Source of the DNA: a virus
Lineage: Duplodnaviria; Heunggongvirae; Uroviricota; Caudoviricetes
DNA: 4,655 bases
Direction: 5' to 3' (one strand)
Virus record (IMG/VR): IMGVR_UViG_2671180458_000007
Shown: positions 1-4,655 of the stretch, in pieces
Layout: the number at the start of each line of letters is the position of its first letter
Numbering within the stretch: the first letter of the stretch is position 1
Made by a program: the position numbers and the translations under genes
The notes under the pieces: model-generated
Databases searched by the model: none
What the model saw: the letters and a program-made list of their open reading frames with translations, nothing else
What the model was told of the DNA's origin: nothing

Positions 1-310
1 ATTTTGCGTTATCGGGAATATCGGGAAGTGACCGCCGCAGCCGTTCCGGCTTCGTCCACTGGTAAGTATTTTTCGCGCTCTCCCTCCGTTGTTGAGAACG
101 GCGGCGGTATGCCAGCAACGCAAGGACGCATGTTCGTATGTTGCACATATCCACGCCGTTAAGCTCAATACCATCACGGCGCATCACCTCAGCAACCACA
201 CGCGCATAATTTTCGGCGGTCACGCTGTCCGGCTGCGTGGCCTGTTCGTCAGCCTGCTGGCTGATTCCGGCGACGCGGCGGATTAATCCCAGTATTTCGG
301 CTTCTGTCAT
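1..310 (-). CDS. Hypothetical protein, partial (N-terminal 103 aa in window; 3' end lies beyond the left edge)
   Basis: ATG is the reverse complement of 308-310 and the frame stays open to position 1 (begins MTEAEILGLIRRVAGISQQADEQ...). A G-rich Shine-Dalgarno-like GGGGG sits 4-9 nt upstream. It follows the terminator and promoter cassette downstream of the capsid gene. No recognisable motif; lying downstream of a capsid gene it could be a head-tail connector or adaptor, but that is speculation. It is not in the supplied ORF track because it has no stop inside the window. Confidence 0.5.
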   Translation of the reverse strand, partial: MTEAEILGLIRRVAGISQQADEQATQPDSVTAENYARVVAEVMRRDGIELNGVDMCNIRTCVLALLAYRRRSQQRRESAKNTYQWTKPERLRRSLPDIPDNAK

Positions 311-463
311 TGTGCCCCCATCGCGCTGGTGAAGAAAACAAGCTCAGATTTTTTGTAAAGAATCTGTCACGCTAAAAGATGTCGAACAAAAATTAACCAC
401 AACCATCATCTTTTTTGCATCAACCACATTAAAAACAACAGGTTACACACATGATGATGATGA

Positions 464-561
464 CGATAAAATCACAAAAATGCGCTTTTTTCCGCGCCGC
501 CCGCCCCGTGTTCATACCCACCCCACCGGGAGGACCCGCAAAAAAGGCGGCTGGTGCCGCC
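464..561. repeat. Copy A of a ~100 bp conserved intergenic cassette (second copy at 3001-3098)
   Basis: By-eye alignment: aaaaatgcgcttttttccgcgccgcccgccccgtgt...cccaccccaccgggaggacccgcaaaaaag (A) against aaaaaatgcgcctttttccgcgccctcccgccccgtgt...cccaccccaccaggaggacccgcaaaaaag (B). Both copies sit immediately 3' of a minus-strand stop codon and end in a terminator hairpin. Confidence 0.7.
538..561 (-). terminator. Rho-independent terminator after the protease-capsid gene
   Basis: On the minus strand: GGCGGC-ACCA-GCCGCC hairpin (6-bp GC stem, 4-nt loop) followed by TTTTTTG, starting 6 nt after the TGA stop at 568-570. Confidence 0.7.
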
Positions 562-567
562 TTGTTG

Positions 568-2457
568 TCAGAGTGAATCTGTCCCGCCTGATTTGACCAT
601 ACCGCGATAATCCAGAGCTGCCACACCTGCATCAATACGGACTTTCCAGGCCACGCCGTCAACGATAAAACCTTCCTGCTGTTCAAGGTAAGGCTCGTCA
701 TTGCCATCAAGATAAGCCACCTCGATTGTGTCCGTTCCCTGTGCGGAAAGCATGTACCATTGTTTTTCGCTGATATCATCAAGGCGGGGATCGACGATGA
801 TATCAAGTAGCTTGTGGTACGGGTTAAAGATCCCGCTGTTTTTATCAGCCCCGAAAGGTGCGGTTGAGTTAATCATCTGCAACGCGCGATCTTCCAGTGC
901 TGCCGGAACTAAAAGGAATTTAGGCGCAATATTCAGCACTTCGCCATTTTTGTCCTTCTGTGTGCGCATCAGGTGACGTGCTGCACTAAGTCCCGGTGTT
1001 GTCAGTCCTGCTTCAATCAGGTTGCTGTGTTTTTTGTCAAACAGCGTTATTCCGTCAGAAAGTTTTACGTTGCCTGTAAGCACCAGATTAACCAGATTTC
1101 CCACCGTTCTTGATGCTGCACGGCCCATAGCCATTGGCACCGTTGATAACTGATCAAGGTCATCATTGATTATCGCCTGGCGGGTAATGCTGAAAATATT
1201 CCCGTAAGTAGCCAGCGCGATGGGTTCACCGCGATCGCTGGTGGTGATGTATTTATATTCTGCCCCTTCCGGAACTTTGTTTAACGTTGAGAAGCCATTC
1301 ATACCAACGCGGCGGGCTTCCCGGAAGTTTGAAAGGGAACCTTTTTTCGTCCACTGGCGGAATGTTTCGCCGCTGTGCTCCCAGCCTGCAAGCACTGATT
1401 TTTCAGCGCCACCAGCAAGGATATCGGTAAAATCGCTGCTGCTGTGGGTGAATGCCGCGTTTACTATCTGCGAGCGTGTGCTGTAGCTGCCCGTGCTTAT
1501 ACCACGATGGGTTAATGATGCCTGTGCCATATCGAAAAGGCTCATCATGGCGTAAGGATTACCGCGTTCGGCCCGTTCGTGACCAAGACGCGCATTAAGC
1601 CCCTGACGCATGGCATCGCCAGTTATATTGCCGTTATCCGTGTACGCGTAGTAAAGATTTGCGGGGGTGGTTTTGTTTGTTGGCGTTGATTCTTTACCCA
1701 TAGCGAGTAAAAGGCGTTCGCGTGCATTCTCAACGCTACATTCTGAATCCGCAAGACAACTTATAGCCAGGTCGTTATATCTTCCGTTGAAGGTGCCAAA
1801 CAATTCACGGATGCCGTTAAGTCGTTCCTGTTCGCCACTGCCAGTTTTCTGGCTGATCATGCTTTTAATTTTTTCCGGCATATTTGAAAAATCTCCGATT
1901 CGTTTTGATTCAATTCGGGCCATTGCTGTAATCGCGGGTATAACCTCATCTGCGAAACCGTTAGCCTTACACTCATTGCCATCCATCCAGGTTTCCGCCT
2001 CCATCATGGAGGTGATTTCCTGTTTGCTCCTGCCCGTTCTTCCGGCATAGGTTTCTGCCATCGTGTCGCCCAGCTTGTCCATCAGATCAGCAAAGCGGCG
2101 AACGTCGCCCGACACTCCGGCAGTAACACCACGGGGGGCATGTATCATCATCATCGCGTTTTCAGGCATAACGATATGATCTCCACACATGGCAATAAAC
2201 GAGGCCATAGAAGCCGCCATGCCTTCAATGTGTACGATTTTTTTTGCCGGATGATTTTTCAGAGCGTTATAGATAGCCAGCCCTTCAAAGATGTCGCCAC
2301 CAGGTGAATGGATGCGAAGATGGATTTCAGACGCATTACCACACGCGTTGATCTCGTCAGTAAGTGCCGATGCTTTTACACCGTACCCGCCGATCTCGTC
2401 ATAAATGCGCACATAGACAACATCTGCCATAGCCTTAATGGAAAACCATGTTTTCAT
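568..2457 (-). CDS. Prohead protease / major capsid fusion protein: N-terminal ClpP-family (S14) serine protease domain, linker or scaffold-like region, C-terminal putative major capsid domain (629 aa)
   Basis: Long intact ORF. The N-terminal ~190 aa carry ClpP signatures visible in the translation: HSPGGDIFEGLAIYNAL (ClpP INSPGG...AG.AIYD motif), GMAASMASFIA (active-site Ser motif G.AASMG), MMIHAPRG (active-site His motif MIHQP). The remaining ~430 aa are too long for a protease alone. Assigning them to a capsid domain rests on known ClpP-type prohead protease-capsid fusions in prophages, not on a motif I can verify by eye. ATG at 2455-2457 is preceded by AGGGG about 7 nt upstream and overlaps the upstream ORF stop (ATGA). 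Confidence 0.85.
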   Translation of the reverse strand: MKTWFSIKAMADVVYVRIYDEIGGYGVKASALTDEINACGNASEIHLRIHSPGGDIFEGLAIYNALKNHPAKKIVHIEGMAASMASFIAMCGDHIVMPENAMMMIHAPRGVTAGVSGDVRRFADLMDKLGDTMAETYAGRTGRSKQEITSMMEAETWMDGNECKANGFADEVIPAITAMARIESKRIGDFSNMPEKIKSMISQKTGSGEQERLNGIRELFGTFNGRYNDLAISCLADSECSVENARERLLLAMGKESTPTNKTTPANLYYAYTDNGNITGDAMRQGLNARLGHERAERGNPYAMMSLFDMAQASLTHRGISTGSYSTRSQIVNAAFTHSSSDFTDILAGGAEKSVLAGWEHSGETFRQWTKKGSLSNFREARRVGMNGFSTLNKVPEGAEYKYITTSDRGEPIALATYGNIFSITRQAIINDDLDQLSTVPMAMGRAASRTVGNLVNLVLTGNVKLSDGITLFDKKHSNLIEAGLTTPGLSAARHLMRTQKDKNGEVLNIAPKFLLVPAALEDRALQMINSTAPFGADKNSGIFNPYHKLLDIIVDPRLDDISEKQWYMLSAQGTDTIEVAYLDGNDEPYLEQQEGFIVDGVAWKVRIDAGVAALDYRGMVKSGGTDSL

Positions 2458-2648
2458 AGCCAGACCCCTAACGTTGCCCTGTACCAGTATTCAACCGCGC
2501 TGCGTGTGATTTGTCCTTTCGTGGGTACTGGCATACCCGGGTGATTATCTTTGATGAACTGCTGATAGCGTTCGATCTTCTCCATAGTTCCGGCGTCTAT
2601 GTGTACCGTGGCACTTTTATCCGGCTTTCTGGTGTTGTTCTCTGGCAT
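2454..2648 (-). CDS. Small hypothetical protein (64 aa), translationally coupled to the protease-capsid gene
   Basis: The ORF track gives 2454..2681 (75 aa, MMPVNQ...), but that start has no Shine-Dalgarno. The internal ATG at 2646-2648 (MPENNTRKPDKSATVHIDAGT...) has GGAGG (reverse complement of 2656-2660) 7 nt upstream, so I prefer it. The TGA stop overlaps the capsid ATG (ATGA at 2454-2457). Function unknown. Confidence 0.6.
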   Translation of the reverse strand: MPENNTRKPDKSATVHIDAGTMEKIERYQQFIKDNHPGMPVPTKGQITRSAVEYWYRATLGVWL

Positions 2649-2722
2649 AAATCCGCCTCCGTTTTGATTAACGGGCATCATTATTGATCGATAAAAGTAA
2701 TAGATAAATCATTTTCTACCTG

Positions 2723-2750
2723 AAAATCAGATTATGATTTTTCTGATTAT
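2723..2750. promoter_or_regulatory. Inverted repeat, candidate operator in the leader of the capsid operon
   Basis: aaaatcaga (2723-2731) and tctgattat (2742-2750) form 8/9 inverted arms around a 10-nt AT-rich spacer, 75-100 bp upstream of the small-ORF start. Confidence 0.35.
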
Positions 2751-2843
2751 TCTCAGAGAGGCAAAGTTATTGACGCATTTTTGCCATTGAAGCAGTATTA
2801 AGACTCGTCATCCTGGCGATAAAAACTCCTTTGTCGTGTAAAA

Positions 2844-2879
2844 GCGCCTCCGGTAACAGCAATCGGGGGCGCTTTTTTT
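2844..2879 (+). terminator. Terminator-like hairpin plus U-tract, oriented on the plus strand, inside the capsid-operon upstream region
   Basis: Plus strand: GCGCCUCCG (2844-2852), 11-nt loop, CGGGGGCGC (2864-2872) gives a 9-bp stem with one G-U pair, followed by TTTTTTT (2873-2879). On the minus strand the same hairpin is followed by only TTTT. No convincing plus-strand gene ends here. Confidence 0.5.
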
Positions 2880-2903
2880 GCGCCTGTTTTTTGTAAATGT
2901 TTT

Positions 2904-2917
2904 CGGGAACGTTCCGG
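2904..2917. promoter_or_regulatory. Palindrome cGGGAACGTTCCgG, candidate dimeric regulator binding site
   Basis: Perfect 10-bp palindrome GGAACGTTCC at 2906-2915 with partly symmetric flanks. It lies in the promoter region between the upstream terminator (3076-3098) and the capsid operon and is absent from the otherwise similar region A. Confidence 0.35.
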
Positions 2918-3000
2918 TGATGAACAAAAAACAACCTGATTCGACACTAAAAATTTTTATTTCTCAACATATCAATAACTTATAGTGGTGGTGATGGTGC

Positions 3001-3098
3001 CATAAAAATCAAAAAATGCGCCTTTTTCCGCGCCCTCCCGCCCCGTGTACAGGCCCACCCCACCAGGAGGACCCGCAAAAAAGCCGGATTGCTCCGGC
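3001..3098. repeat. Copy B of the ~100 bp conserved intergenic cassette (first copy at 464-561)
   Basis: See copy A. It sits immediately 3' of the stop of the 3106-3378 gene and ends in a terminator hairpin. Confidence 0.7.
3076..3098 (-). terminator. Rho-independent terminator after the small regulator-like gene
   Basis: On the minus strand: GCCGGA-GCAA-TCCGGC hairpin followed by TTTTTTG, 8 nt after the TAA stop at 3106-3108. Confidence 0.7.
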
Positions 3099-3105
3099 TG
3101 TGTGA

Positions 3106-3378
3106 TTAGCTGTCCTGGTAATTGCGCCATATTTCATCACCAGCACCATCTATACCCATTTCGGCACAAGTGCGATTAACTGCATTTCTCAGGTCTCCGA
3201 AATTATCAGGCGGCTCCGGTGGCCTCTGTGCCTTCCTGGAACATTCCAGCCGTCGCATCGTGATGTGATGCCGTTCCTTGTCTGTCTCCACCAGCATCAT
3301 GACTTCACCCCATCGCGCCGCCGCCCTCCGGTAAAATCCTTTCGCTTCGAGTTCTTCCGCTATGCGGTCATGTACCAT
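3106..3378 (-). CDS. Small basic protein (~90 aa), possible PerC-like transcriptional regulator
   Basis: The ORF track gives 3106..3498 (130 aa), but that start overlaps the ssb 3' end by ~110 nt. The internal ATG at 3376-3378 (MVHDRIAEELEAKGFYRRAAARWGEVMMLVETDKERHHITMRRLECSRKAQRPPEPPD...) lies 10 nt after the ssb stop and has GAGGGGG 5-6 nt upstream. The PerC-like call rests on recalled resemblance of the N-terminal region and is unverified. Confidence 0.55.
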   Translation of the reverse strand: MVHDRIAEELEAKGFYRRAAARWGEVMMLVETDKERHHITMRRLECSRKAQRPPEPPDNFGDLRNAVNRTCAEMGIDGAGDEIWRNYQDS

Positions 3379-3388
3379 CGTCACCCCC

Positions 3389-3799
3389 TCAGAACGGAAT
3401 ATCATCACCGTAAGGGTCATCGCCTCCCGCTGGTGGCTGATTACCCTGTGTGCCTGTGGTTTTGCGTCTGTTCCCGCCTGGTCGCACCGTTTTCGCACTG
3501 ATTACGCTGTCGGCAATGACCTGATAACCCTGACGCGTCTCCCCGTTCTGTCCGGTCCACTGGCTTATCTGCATCACGCCGGATACGCTGATTACGTTGC
3601 CTTTCTCATGTCCTGCCAGTTGGTCGGCCTGTTTGCCAAATGCGATGACCGATAACCATAACGTCGCCTGTCCGTCCTGTGCCTGACTGCATGGCAGTGA
3701 TACCGCCATACGCGCCAGCGTCATCGGTGTGCCCTTGCTGGTCTGTTTTACCTGCGGGTCGTCCACCAGCCGCCCGTAAGCGGCTATCTGTGCTGTCAT
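3389..3799 (-). CDS. ssb: Single-stranded DNA-binding protein (SSB), compact 136-aa form
   Basis: The translation ends in DPYGDDIPF; the acidic DDIPF terminus is the conserved SSB protein-interaction tail (E. coli SSB ends DFDDDIPF). It is preceded by a Gly/Pro/Gln-rich linker and an OB-fold-like core (LWLSVIAFGKQADQLAGHEKGNVISVSG...QWTGQNGETRQ, compare E. coli [30 protein letters not shown]...KWTDQSGQDR). Good Shine-Dalgarno GGAGAGGTG upstream of the ATG at 3797-3799. Confidence 0.88.
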   Translation of the reverse strand: MTAQIAAYGRLVDDPQVKQTSKGTPMTLARMAVSLPCSQAQDGQATLWLSVIAFGKQADQLAGHEKGNVISVSGVMQISQWTGQNGETRQGYQVIADSVISAKTVRPGGNRRKTTGTQGNQPPAGGDDPYGDDIPF

Positions 3800-4041
3800 G
3801 ATTTCACCTCTCCGGTTTTAACGTTGATGGTTGTTACCTGTTCCGCTTCGGCAATCTCCCGCTCTGTCAGCGTGGCAAAGTTTGCAGCTGCCGTTGTCAT
3901 GAATGCGCTAATCAGTTCGGGATGTGCTTTCGCATATCCTTCCCCGGCGTTGCGGTCGATGATTTTTATCGACACCCTTAACCAGTGTTCCGTCAAATCA
4001 AGGGCGTGCGATTGTGATTTTTTTGTGTGCTTCGCTGTCAT
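3796..4041 (-). CDS. Hypothetical protein (81 aa), translationally coupled to ssb
   Basis: ORF MTAKHTKKSQSHALDLTEHWLRVSIKIIDRNAGEGYAKAHPELISAF... with ATG at 4039-4041. Its TGA stop overlaps the ssb ATG (ATGA at 3796-3799). The Shine-Dalgarno is weak. It is the first gene downstream of the iteron array. Function unknown. Confidence 0.6.
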   Translation of the reverse strand: MTAKHTKKSQSHALDLTEHWLRVSIKIIDRNAGEGYAKAHPELISAFMTTAAANFATLTEREIAEAEQVTTINVKTGEVKS

Positions 4042-4085
4042 AGGCTTTATCTCACAGCAGTAAATTAAAATTTTTGCGTTTTAAC

Positions 4086-4314
4086 CCTTCACCTGTTCAC
4101 CTTTTGATATTTTATCTTTTAATTCATAATGTTAAGGGGTGAACAGTTTCACAAAAACTATTCACCAACTATTCACCACTGTTCACCCTTGAAGCTCAAT
4201 AAACAATCAAAAAGGTGAACAGTGAATAGTTTGGTGAACAGTTCATAAATAACTGTTCACCCTATAATATACTGATATAAAAGATATTTATGACAGAGTG
4301 AACAGTGGTGAACA
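4086..4314. repeat. Iteron array: ~11 copies of TGTTCACC/GGTGAACA (P4 type I iteron sequence) with AT-rich flanks; candidate crr- or ori-like cis replication site
   Basis: Exact or one-mismatch octamers at 4086, 4094, 4159, 4170, 4180, 4254 (TGTTCACC orientation) and 4138, 4214, 4222, 4233, 4297, 4307 (GGTGAACA orientation). Several are spaced 10-11 bp apart. Two ~50 bp imperfect direct repeats (4138-4188 and 4214-4262) each run from GGTGAACAGT to CTGTTCACCC. AT-rich stretches at 4101-4136 and 4262-4296. The array ends 15 bp from the stop of the flanking gene. Confidence 0.8.
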
Positions 4315-4328
4315 GTTATTCCATAAGT

Positions 4329-4655
4329 TTAATTTTTGCTATCGTCATTAGTGACCGATACACATGACGGCATCCAGTCTTCTGATTCCTCCGTCAGTTT
4401 CACGTTTGAACGCAAACCGTGCTTCGTTTTCCGTTTCATATACTCCCTGCCATATTCCGCCATTGCCCCCGGCATATCTTTACCGAAGCGCGTCAGTGTT
4501 ACAGGTTTACCAAACCCATGTGCCTTCATATAAGCCAGATAGGCATGATAGAGATACCTGCGCGGGCTGAATGGCACAATTTCAGCATTACCCACTAACA
4601 GGCCATCACACATTACCGACGACATGAGATAGCCGCAGAAGTCCACCAGCGAATC
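4329..4655 (-). CDS. C-terminal part of a replication protein, probably a P4 alpha-like primase/helicase (partial; 5' end beyond the right edge)
   Basis: The minus-strand frame is open from the window edge (…DSLVDFCGYLMSSVMCDGLLVG...) to TAA at 4329-4331. The first start codon in the window is a GTG, so the real start is presumably upstream of the window. The identity is inferred from context: in P4 the alpha gene is immediately followed by the crr iteron region that its C-terminal domain binds. No primase motif is visible in this fragment. Confidence 0.6.
   Translation of the reverse strand, partial: DSLVDFCGYLMSSVMCDGLLVGNAEIVPFSPRRYLYHAYLAYMKAHGFGKPVTLTRFGKDMPGAMAEYGREYMKRKTKHGLRSNVKLTEESEDWMPSCVSVTNDDSKN

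What the first reader, a model, noticed from the sequence alone, without database searches (positions are those of the whole stretch)
3106..3378. Small basic regulator-like protein between ssb and the capsid-operon control region
A ~90-aa Arg-rich protein (RRAAARW, KERHHITMRRLECSRKAQRPP) encoded as the last gene before the terminator and the capsid promoter region. Its size, charge and position resemble small phage or island transcriptional activators; a PerC-like identity is my unverified recollection. It is the most obvious candidate activator of the downstream capsid operon.
Basis: inference. Interest (0 to 1): 0.4.

Follow-up and report, generated by a model that had tools for sequence, protein, structure and literature searches.

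The report
PchE-type PerC regulator in a PICI
The small gene is a real, already described PerC-family regulator (an allele of E. coli O157 PchE) carried by a phage satellite, and the evidence speaks against it being the dedicated switch for the neighbouring capsid genes.

Summary
The ORF at 3106-3378 (minus strand, 90 aa, ATG) is real. It matches Pfam PerC (PF06069) end to end (E 5e-42). It is 89% identical over its full length to PchE (ECs1588) of E. coli O157:H7 Sakai, and RefSeq already annotates the identical protein.

The window is part of an EcCICFT073-type Gram-negative phage-inducible chromosomal island (PICI). Its order is primase, iteron ori, small ORF, ssb, perC, terminator, AT-rich spacer, then a capsid operon.

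The proposed role as activator of the capsid operon is not supported:
- The same capsid control region (about 98% identical) occurs without perC in 41 of the 60 best-matching E. coli genome records, including islands at ordinary chromosomal sites.
- Alleles 76-100% identical to this protein sit upstream of three unrelated late-module control regions. These share only the stop codon and terminator.
- In other genera PerC follows the primase/ssb module, but no capsid genes follow it.

Published work shows PchE is expressed basally from an ssb-containing operon. Its expression falls on SOS induction, and overexpression alters host genes (csgD, flhDC).

The protein is not basic overall (pI 5.9). 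The predicted fold is a helical, TPR-like hairpin with no classical DNA-binding fold.

Verdict: already known, low interest.

The parts
3106..3378 (-). perC/pchE-like CDS, 90 aa (PerC family, PchE group)
   Evidence: Pfam PF06069 E 5.4e-42, full length. 89% identical to Sakai PchE ECs1588. Identical to RefSeq WP_033882726.1, 'PerC family transcriptional regulator'. dN/dS 0.22.
3379..3388 (-). 10-nt intercistronic spacer holding the Shine-Dalgarno sequence (GAGGGGG) between the ssb stop and the perC start
   Evidence: Read directly from the sequence. It implies co-transcription and close translational linkage with ssb.
3389..3799 (-). ssb, single-stranded DNA-binding protein, 136 aa
   Evidence: Pfam SSB E 6e-16, TIGR00621. 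It lies directly upstream of perC in 72 of the 80 IMG/VR loci. Of the other 8, five have perC directly after the small ORF instead, and three are cut off by the contig end.
3796..4041 (-). Small ORF (81 aa, phrog_1231), first cistron of the presumed small-ORF/ssb/perC unit. It occupies the same position as ECs1586 in Sakai.
   Evidence: phrog_1231 E 1e-49 and synteny. In O157 strain PA20 the pchE mRNA starts 10 nt upstream of ECs1586 (PMC7369912).
3076..3099 (-). Intrinsic terminator (hairpin AGCCGGAGCAATCCGGCT plus U-run) that closes the ssb-perC unit
   Evidence: Terminator scan. It is the only sequence shared by the three types of downstream control region, and it also follows ssb in perC-less islands and follows ECs1589.
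2649..3075 (-). Spacer and control region of the capsid operon. The promoter-proximal half is AT-rich (36-41% GC).
   Evidence: Composition profile. No sigma-70-like promoter was found on the minus strand. About 98% identical in islands that lack perC.
2989..3087 (.). About 100-nt element, G-rich on the transcribed strand, repeated at 452-550
   Evidence: 86-87% identity between the two copies. Found unannotated in 1997 of 5426 E. coli genomes. No Rfam match.
2454..2648 (-). Small first ORF of the capsid operon (64 aa as annotated in RefSeq; the open frame extends to 2681). phrog_4934, function unknown.
   Evidence: Its stop overlaps the start of the capsid fusion gene.
568..2457 (-). ClpP-like prohead protease / major capsid protein fusion, 629 aa
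   Evidence: NF045540 E 1e-267. Pfam Phage_capsid_4 and CLP_protease.
4080..4320 (.). AT-rich iteron region (GTGAACAG-type repeats), the presumed PICI replication origin and likely site of the promoter for the small-ORF/ssb/perC unit
   Evidence: Sequence and 30-36% GC. It sits 3' of the primase gene, as described for PICI origins (PMC6092414). The Sakai TSS maps to the equivalent spacer (PMC7369912), but the sequences there are not alignable.
4329..4655 (-). 3' end of the PICI primase/replicase gene, cut off by the window edge
   Evidence: Pfam Pox_D5 E 2e-12. RefSeq 'DNA primase family protein'.

Best explanation
The gene is an allele of pchE, the 'group 3' PerC homologue. It is carried as the last cistron of the replication-module operon (small ORF, ssb, perC, terminator) of an EcCICFT073-type Gram-negative PICI.

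Shown here:
- Family and orthology.
- Operon position and terminator.
- Purifying selection.
- Dispensability for, and independence from, the adjacent capsid module.

Shown for the 89%-identical O157 orthologue in the literature:
- It is transcribed at a low basal level in the uninduced island, as a polycistronic mRNA starting in the ori spacer.
- Its level falls on SOS induction.
- Overexpression changes host regulons (csgD and curli down; flhDC, fliC and motility up), with modest effects on ler, eae and stpA.

Inferred:
- The protein acts in trans as an accessory regulator of AT-rich, H-NS-controlled host or horizontally acquired loci.
- It probably does so by modulating nucleoprotein complexes or partner proteins, as shown for PchA anti-silencing of H-NS and for ANR proteins, rather than as a classical sequence-specific activator.
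- It is not the dedicated activator of the neighbouring capsid operon.
For: Family and orthology:
- PF06069 full length, E 5e-42.
- 89% identical to Sakai PchE and 83% to the EcCICFT073 PerC homologue.
- The identical protein is annotated in RefSeq.

Position and operon:
- The layout '(small ORF-)ssb-perC-terminator' holds in 80 of 80 IMG/VR loci.
- In 21 of 55 loci from other Enterobacterales species, perC sits next to a PICI-type primase, with or without ssb.
- A 10-nt spacer with an SD follows ssb, and a conserved terminator follows perC.

Selection: dN/dS 0.22.

Independence from the capsid module:
- A precise indel with an unchanged control region.
- 41 of the 60 best genome rows lack perC.
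- perC-less islands occur at chromosomal att sites.
- Three unrelated control regions lie behind near-identical alleles, with no shared motif.
- The downstream genes in other genera are not capsid genes.

Fold:
- AlphaFold model at pLDDT 85, all helical.
- A sub-threshold ANR match covers residues 7-52.

Literature:
- PchE located in OI-51/Sp7 (PMC3378721).
- PICI-encoded PerC variants (PMC6092414).
- PchE operon, TSS, expression and targets (PMC6265319, PMC7369912).
- PchA relieves H-NS/StpA/Hha silencing (PMC4764244).
- A PICI PerC-like protein represses LEE1 (PMC11773190).
Against: - All functional data come from orthologues (89% identical or less) and mostly from plasmid overexpression. 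Nothing was measured for this allele or in this strain background.
- The H-NS-modulation mechanism is shown for PchA (group 1), not for PchE.
- The TPR-like match is short and generic. Foldseek found nothing with E below 1, so the fold argument is weak.
- The strict positional conservation at the boundary between the replication and late modules is not explained by a pure 'cargo' role.
- Strains with perC-less islands are often STEC that carry other pch genes, which could complement in trans.
- The ori-region promoter could not be transferred from Sakai to this island, because the ori spacers are not alignable.
Confidence: 0.72

Rival explanations
1. PerC is made as the last early gene and then binds the 2649-3075 region to switch on the capsid operon, acting as a dedicated early-to-late activator of the island.
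For: - The gene is always the last one before the terminator and the late module.
- No sigma-70-like promoter is detectable upstream of the capsid operon on the coding strand, which would fit an activator-dependent promoter.
- PerC and PchA-C are activators of LEE1 (PMC4764244, PMC11773190).
Against: - The same control region occurs without perC in 41 of 60 genome rows, and in autonomous islands.
- Alleles 76-100% identical to the window protein pair with three unrelated control regions that share only the terminator and no motif.
- In other genera no capsid gene follows perC.
- The orthologue is expressed basally and goes down, not up, on SOS or prophage induction (PMC6265319).
- No DNA-binding fold is predicted.
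Confidence: 0.08
2. An ANR-type anti-activator. The N-terminal helical hairpin binds an AraC/XylS-family regulator and/or H-NS directly, so the protein works mainly as a repressor of host or pathogenicity-island regulons, as proposed for EcCIMP1_025.
For: - Residues 7-52 match the ANR model NF033650 over positions 9-54 of 54.
- The fold is a helical hairpin.
- EcCIMP1_025, a PICI PerC-like protein, represses LEE1 (PMC11773190).
- PchE represses csgD, eae and lpfA1 (PMC6265319, PMC7369912).
- ANR proteins act by protein-protein contacts with AraC-type regulators and H-NS (titles and abstracts of PMC5570504 and PMC10148876).
Against: - The ANR score is 19.9 bits, below the curated cut-off of 32.
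- The protein has a conserved 38-residue C-terminal block (FGD...MG(I/L)) that the 54-position ANR profile does not cover.
- PchE also activates (flhDC, fliC, ler).
- No partner protein has been identified.
Confidence: 0.3
3. A satellite life-cycle function. PerC is kept at the junction between the replication and late modules because it counter-silences H-NS on the island's own, or the helper's, AT-rich DNA. Alternatively it reprograms the host (motility, adhesion) in a way that favours satellite spread. Either way it would be non-essential but beneficial.
For: - The position is invariant despite module shuffling.
- The linkage to primase/ssb extends across genera.
- The gene is under purifying selection.
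- The late control region and the ori are AT-rich (30-41% GC), which is typical of H-NS targets.
- PchA binds low-GC, H-NS-covered DNA (PMC4764244).
Against: - There is no experimental support.
- Frequent loss of perC, with the rest of the island intact in the sampled loci, argues for at most a small benefit.
- Expression falls on SOS induction (PMC6265319).
Confidence: 0.15
4. A decaying or functionless hitch-hiker ORF.
For: - The gene is often absent.
- 7 of 83 extracted copies contain an in-frame stop.
- The PICI PerC homologues of EDL933 and CFT073 were reported to have no effect on LEE1 fusions (Porter 2005, as cited in PMC11773190 and PMC6265319).
Against: - dN/dS is 0.22, with 37 distinct protein alleles that keep the family's near-invariant residues.
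- The orthologue shows clear phenotypes on deletion and on overexpression (PMC6265319, PMC7369912).
Confidence: 0.03

Closest known systems
[not shown]
   Same: - 90 aa, 89% identical over the full length.
- The same small-ORF/ssb/pchE order followed by the same terminator hairpin.
- The same kind of element, a Gram-negative PICI.
   Different: - Ten residues differ.
- The downstream module in Sakai is a small ORF (ECs1589) plus an HK97-type capsid/protease/portal/terminase set. Here it is a protease-capsid fusion operon behind an unrelated control region.
- The ori and iteron sequences differ.
PerC-family gene of EcCICFT073 (WP_000233305.1), the model Gram-negative PICI
   Same: The same position after ssb and before the late module. 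83% identical over the aligned part.
   Different: The CFT073 protein is 82 aa with a different C-terminal tail. Its late module is lambda E/D-like.
PerC of EPEC (pEAF per operon) and PchA/B/C of EHEC (group 1)
   Same: The same Pfam family (PF06069) and the same conserved LE..G(L/F)(Y/W)RRAA.RW core. PchA is a small regulator with no homology to known DNA-binding proteins (PMC4764244).
   Different: - Group 1 proteins activate LEE1 by relieving H-NS silencing (PMC4764244).
- PchE-type proteins had little or no effect on LEE1 and act on csgD and flhDC (PMC6265319, PMC7369912).
- Group 1 genes lie in lambdoid prophages or on a plasmid, not in PICIs.
- Sequence identity to this protein was not measured here, because no PerC or PchA sequence was retrieved.
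ANR family (Aar, Rnr; NCBIfam NF033650)
   Same: A small helical protein. The N-terminal 46 residues align to the whole ANR profile. The regulatory effects are pleiotropic and linked to H-NS.
   Different: The score is below the family cut-off (19.9 against 32 bits). This protein also carries an extra conserved C-terminal block. No AraC-type partner gene lies nearby.
EcCIMP1_025, the PerC-like protein of PICI EcCIMP1
   Same: PICI-encoded, PerC family, treated as an accessory regulator (PMC11773190).
   Different: It is only about 40% identical to the EDL933 and CFT073 PICI homologues according to that paper. It is a shown repressor of LEE1 in Citrobacter rodentium. It was not compared directly here.

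Membership tests
PerC family (Pfam PF06069) | Whole-protein HMM score above the gathering threshold with end-to-end coverage | tested here: met
   142.4 bits against a cut-off of 22.6, E 5.4e-42, residues 1-89 on profile positions 1-89 of 90.
PerC family (Pfam PF06069) | Conserved core residues (L10, E11, G14, R17, R18, A19, A20, R22, W23, C46, M74, G75 in this protein) | tested here: met
   Invariant or at least 90% conserved in a 61-sequence alignment that reaches down to 28% identity. All are present in the window protein.
PerC family (Pfam PF06069) | Transcriptional regulatory activity (for example on LEE1) | not testable with these tools
   Only literature on orthologues is available: PMC6265319, PMC7369912, PMC11773190.
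PchE / group 3 PerC homologues of PICIs | High full-length identity to ECs1588 | tested here: met
   89% over 90 aa without internal gaps. A database hit named PchE (P0042) is 87% identical over the overlapping part.
PchE / group 3 PerC homologues of PICIs | Synteny: small ORF, ssb, pchE, terminator, downstream of the primase and ori of a PICI | tested here: met
   Window layout, the Sakai Sp7 layout, and 80 of 80 related loci.
PchE / group 3 PerC homologues of PICIs | Polycistronic transcription from the ori spacer, with basal expression reduced by SOS induction | not testable with these tools
   Reported for strain PA20 (PMC7369912, PMC6265319). The ori spacers of the two islands do not align, so the promoter cannot be transferred by homology.
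ANR family (NCBIfam NF033650) | Score above the curated cut-off | tested here: not met
   19.9 bits against a cut-off of 32.
Gram-negative PICI (EcCICFT073 type), for the element that carries the gene | The gene set int, alpA-like HTH, primase, iteron ori and few or no phage lysis or tail genes, in about 10-15 kb at a specific att site | tested here: met
   The closest genome, 99.1% identical to the window over bases 27-4655, has integrase next to tRNA-Pro, an HTH regulator, Icd-like protein, DUF4222, primase, ssb, PerC, the capsid fusion and a last ORF, about 9.8 kb in all. The gene order matches EcCICFT073.
Gram-negative PICI (EcCICFT073 type), for the element that carries the gene | Induction, replication and packaging that depend on a helper phage | not testable with these tools
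   Known for EcCICFT073 and EcCIEDL933 only (PMC6092414; bioRxiv 10.1101/2022.09.08.507074).

The most novel reading that the evidence does not exclude
PchE-type PerC proteins may be more than virulence 'cargo'. They could be a conserved, non-essential part of the replication module of Gram-negative PICIs. Their native job would be to modulate H-NS-type silencing of the satellite's own or its helper's AT-rich DNA, or to reprogram host motility and adhesion, to the satellite's benefit. That would explain why the gene keeps the same slot after ssb across three late-module types and across genera.
Probability: 0.15. Interest if true: 0.5.

Novelty: already known. Interest (0 to 1): 0.12.

Why it matters
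PerC/Pch regulators link mobile elements to virulence, biofilm and motility programmes in pathogenic E. coli. Knowing that a given island carries a PchE allele is therefore useful for annotation.

The added value here is modest and comparative:
- The gene belongs to the primase/ssb replication module of the satellite.
- It is freely combined with unrelated late modules.
- It is often missing.

Together these points steer experiments away from a 'capsid activator' model and towards trans-acting effects on the host or on the nucleoid. What PICI-borne PerC proteins do for the satellite itself remains an open, testable question.

Tried and rejected
1. Rfam scan of the whole window at a permissive E-value: only sub-threshold chance hits, and nothing in or next to the gene.
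3. PADLOC defence models for PerC, ssb and the two small ORFs: no hits.
4. A search for a motif shared by the three late-module control regions, as a possible common PerC site. The best three-way 12- to 20-mers were no better than dinucleotide shuffles. A 12-mer shared by two of the types (AATCATGATTAT) had a BLAST E of about 0.06 and was not taken further.
5. The idea that perC is lost only in helper-embedded islands, which receive read-through from the helper. It was rejected: 3 of 4 sampled perC-less islands lie at chromosomal sites.
6. Transfer of the published pchE transcription start to this window by alignment. It failed because the ori spacers are unrelated.
7. The Porter et al. 2005 paper (PMC543544) is not held. 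Its results are cited only second-hand.
8. tblastn against the phage collection found only one weak hit, so this PchE subgroup is essentially absent from deposited phage genomes.
9. The comparison was done with DNA alignment instead.

Full report
**Observation**

The window has a minus-strand ORF ending at 3106. The mechanical ORF list runs it back to a GTG at 3498, but that part overlaps ssb in another frame. The ATG at 3378 lies 10 nt after the ssb stop and is preceded by GAGGGGG. All homologues begin with the same MVHD/MIHD.

The stop codon is followed at once by a strong intrinsic terminator at 3099-3076. Across related loci the median pairwise dN/dS among 32 equal-length distinct alleles is 0.22, against 0.155 for the neighbouring ssb, so this is a gene under purifying selection. 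The protein has 12 arginines, but its net charge is about -2 and its pI is 5.9. Only the N-terminal 52 residues are basic.

**What it is**

Pfam PerC (PF06069) matches end to end: 142 bits against a cut-off of 22.6, E 5e-42. PHROGs places it in phrog_994. NCBIfam gives only a sub-threshold ANR match over residues 7-52, at 19.9 bits against a cut-off of 32.

The best-matching genome is E. coli JNEC-KY174, 99.1% identical over window bases 27-4655. There the identical protein is annotated as a PerC family transcriptional regulator, WP_033882726.1. It sits in a roughly 10-kb island next to tRNA-Pro. The island order is integrase, HTH regulator, Icd-like protein, DUF4222, primase, small ORF, ssb, PerC, small ORF, protease-capsid fusion, last ORF.

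This is the gene order of EcCICFT073, the model Gram-negative PICI (PMC6092414). It is also the order of Sp7 / O-island 51 of O157:H7 Sakai, where the gene after ssb is named pchE (ECs1588) (PMC3378721). The window protein is 89% identical to Sakai PchE over all 90 residues and 83% identical to the CFT073 homologue. More precisely, the gene is a PchE-type (group 3) PerC homologue.

That PICIs of E. coli carry PerC variants is published (PMC6092414, PMC11773190).

**Context and conservation**

Eighty IMG/VR contigs encode a relative that is 76-100% identical. In every one, perC sits at the 3' end of the replication module: directly after ssb in 72 loci, and directly after the small ORF in five loci that lack ssb. 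In the other three the contig ends too close upstream to tell. Wherever the contig extends far enough downstream, perC is followed by one of three late modules:
- a lambda E/D-like capsid pair;
- an HK97-like capsid/protease/portal set (the cf-PICI type);
- the protease-capsid fusion seen in this window.

The sequences between perC and these three modules share only the perC stop codon and the terminator hairpin, about 31 nt. The rest is unrelated at blastn word size 7. A search for a common 12- to 20-mer did no better than dinucleotide shuffles. The same terminator also closes the optional ECs1589 cassette. In perC-less islands it directly follows ssb. It therefore marks the module boundary.

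Among one-genome-per-species representatives of Enterobacterales, 21 of 55 PerC-family loci lie within about 3 kb of a PICI-type primase, usually with ssb. The large downstream genes sampled there are tape-measure-like proteins, an SLT-domain protein, an integrase and a Panacea-domain protein. None is a capsid gene. The conserved partner of perC is thus the primase/ssb module, not a capsid operon. More distant PerC-family genes also occur on 386 plasmids.

**Test of the capsid-activator idea**

A close relative of this island in O157 strain FDAARGOS_293 lacks perC through a precise indel of about 285 bp between the ssb stop and the terminator. The roughly 420-bp control region and the capsid operon remain about 98% identical. 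Among the 60 best E. coli genome records for window 2300-3800, 19 carry a PerC gene in front of this control region and 41 do not.

I asked whether perC loss is confined to islands embedded in a helper prophage late gene, where helper read-through could replace an activator (PMC10111431). It is not. Of four sampled perC-less islands, one is embedded in a terminase gene and three sit at ordinary chromosomal sites: clpS/cspD, roxA/phoQ and pgrR/mppA.

These results, together with the three unrelated control regions paired with near-identical PerC alleles, argue against a dedicated, sequence-specific activator of the adjacent operon. The literature agrees. In O157 strain PA20, pchE is part of a polycistronic mRNA that starts 10 nt upstream of ECs1586, in the ori spacer. 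It is expressed at a steady low level and falls six- to seven-fold on SOS/prophage induction (PMC7369912, PMC6265319). That is the opposite of what an early-to-late switch should do.

Two caveats remain. No sigma-70-like promoter is visible upstream of the capsid operon, so some activator or read-through is needed. Also, perC-less islands are often in STEC strains that carry other pch genes, which could act in trans. Nobody appears to have tested a capsid-promoter reporter.

**How it most likely works**

For the orthologue, overexpression represses csgD and curli independently of Ler. It activates flhDC, fliC and motility, and it modestly changes ler, eae, lpfA1 and stpA. Deleting it slightly raises curli (PMC6265319, PMC7369912).

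[quoted passage not shown] PchA binds low-GC DNA inside H-NS-covered regions and reduces H-NS binding in vivo and in vitro (PMC4764244). Another PICI PerC-like protein represses LEE1 and has been proposed to act like an ANR protein (PMC11773190). ANR proteins work through protein-protein contacts with AraC-type regulators and H-NS (PMC5570504, PMC10148876; titles and abstracts).

My best reading is this. The gene is an accessory, trans-acting regulator, made at a low level from the integrated island as the last cistron of the ssb operon. It alters the expression of AT-rich, H-NS-controlled loci by modulating nucleoprotein complexes or partner proteins.

The family, orthology, operon position, selection and independence from the capsid module are shown here. 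The expression pattern and the targets are shown for the orthologue. The molecular mechanism is inferred.

**Novelty**

The protein, its family, its place in PICIs and several phenotypes of its orthologue are all published, and the identical sequence is already annotated. I rate it 'already known', with low interest.

One open point is worth a note. The strict positional conservation of perC at the replication/late junction, across module shuffling and across genera, is not explained by a simple cargo role. A satellite-centred function, such as counter-silencing of its own or its helper's AT-rich DNA, is not excluded. I put that at about 15%.

Noticed in passing
window 452-550 and 2989-3087: An element of about 100 nt occurs twice at 86-87% identity. 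Each copy lies just 3' of a minus-strand gene's terminator: one after the capsid fusion gene and one after perC. On the transcribed strand it is G-rich (GCGGGUCCUCC.GGUGGGGUGGG...CACGGGGCGGG.GG) and ends in a second hairpin plus U-run. There is no Rfam match. blastn finds it unannotated in 1997 of 5426 complete E. coli genomes, 1-8 copies each. Folding z-scores are weak (-0.8 and -2.0).
   Followed up: partly
window 2840-2885 (+ strand): A terminator-like hairpin, GCGCCTCCGG...CGGGGGCGC plus T7, sits on the strand opposite the capsid operon, inside the control region. It also gave a weak ctRNA-like Rfam hit at 23 bits. It could end a short antisense transcript starting near 2800. A TTGACG hexamer lies near 2770, but no good -10 element was found.
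   Followed up: no
L002 (E. coli O157 FDAARGOS_293) 10533-23003; L085 5734-19041: Close relatives of this island are inserted inside the large terminase gene of a lambdoid prophage, splitting it into two annotated fragments. That prophage carries its own protease-capsid fusion gene, about 50% identical to the island's. This is the 'helper-embedded PICI' configuration described in PMC10111431.
   Followed up: partly
L004 8046-8430 and the equivalent stretch in 39 loci: The optional small ORF ECs1589 between perC and the late module is bracketed by two copies of the same terminator hairpin (ACAGCCGGAGnAATCCGGC). The hairpin therefore behaves as a reusable cassette boundary between modules.
   Followed up: partly
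L003 8725-8800 (EcCICFT073, minus strand) and L035: The lambda-E/D-type late control region has a near-consensus promoter (TTGCTC, 16 nt, TATAAT). It is followed at once by a perfect 12-bp inverted repeat, CATAACTGGATG..CATCCAGTTATG, which looks like an operator. The window-type region has a weaker repeat, AATCAGA..TCTGATT, about 60 nt upstream of the small ORF.
   Followed up: no
window 1-310 (- strand): The last ORF of the island starts at 310 and runs off the left edge of the window. Its C-terminal third differs from the 93-aa protein of the otherwise 99%-identical JNEC-KY174 island and from the CFT073 homologue. It is not the 144-aa RppA packaging-redirection protein, and no rpp homologue lies between the capsid gene and this ORF.
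   Followed up: partly
L093, L104, L105 (Enterobacter, Pantoea, Leclercia), about 1.3 kb downstream of perC: In several non-Escherichia elements with a PICI-type primase, ssb and perC, the next large gene is a tape-measure-like protein of 900-1050 aa (Pfam TMP_3 or TMP_2). This suggests a different kind of small element carrying tail genes.
   Followed up: no
window 2454-2681: The open frame of the first capsid-operon gene allows a 75-aa product. RefSeq annotates 64 aa starting at the ATG at 2648, which has a GGAGG Shine-Dalgarno. That start looks more likely.
   Followed up: no
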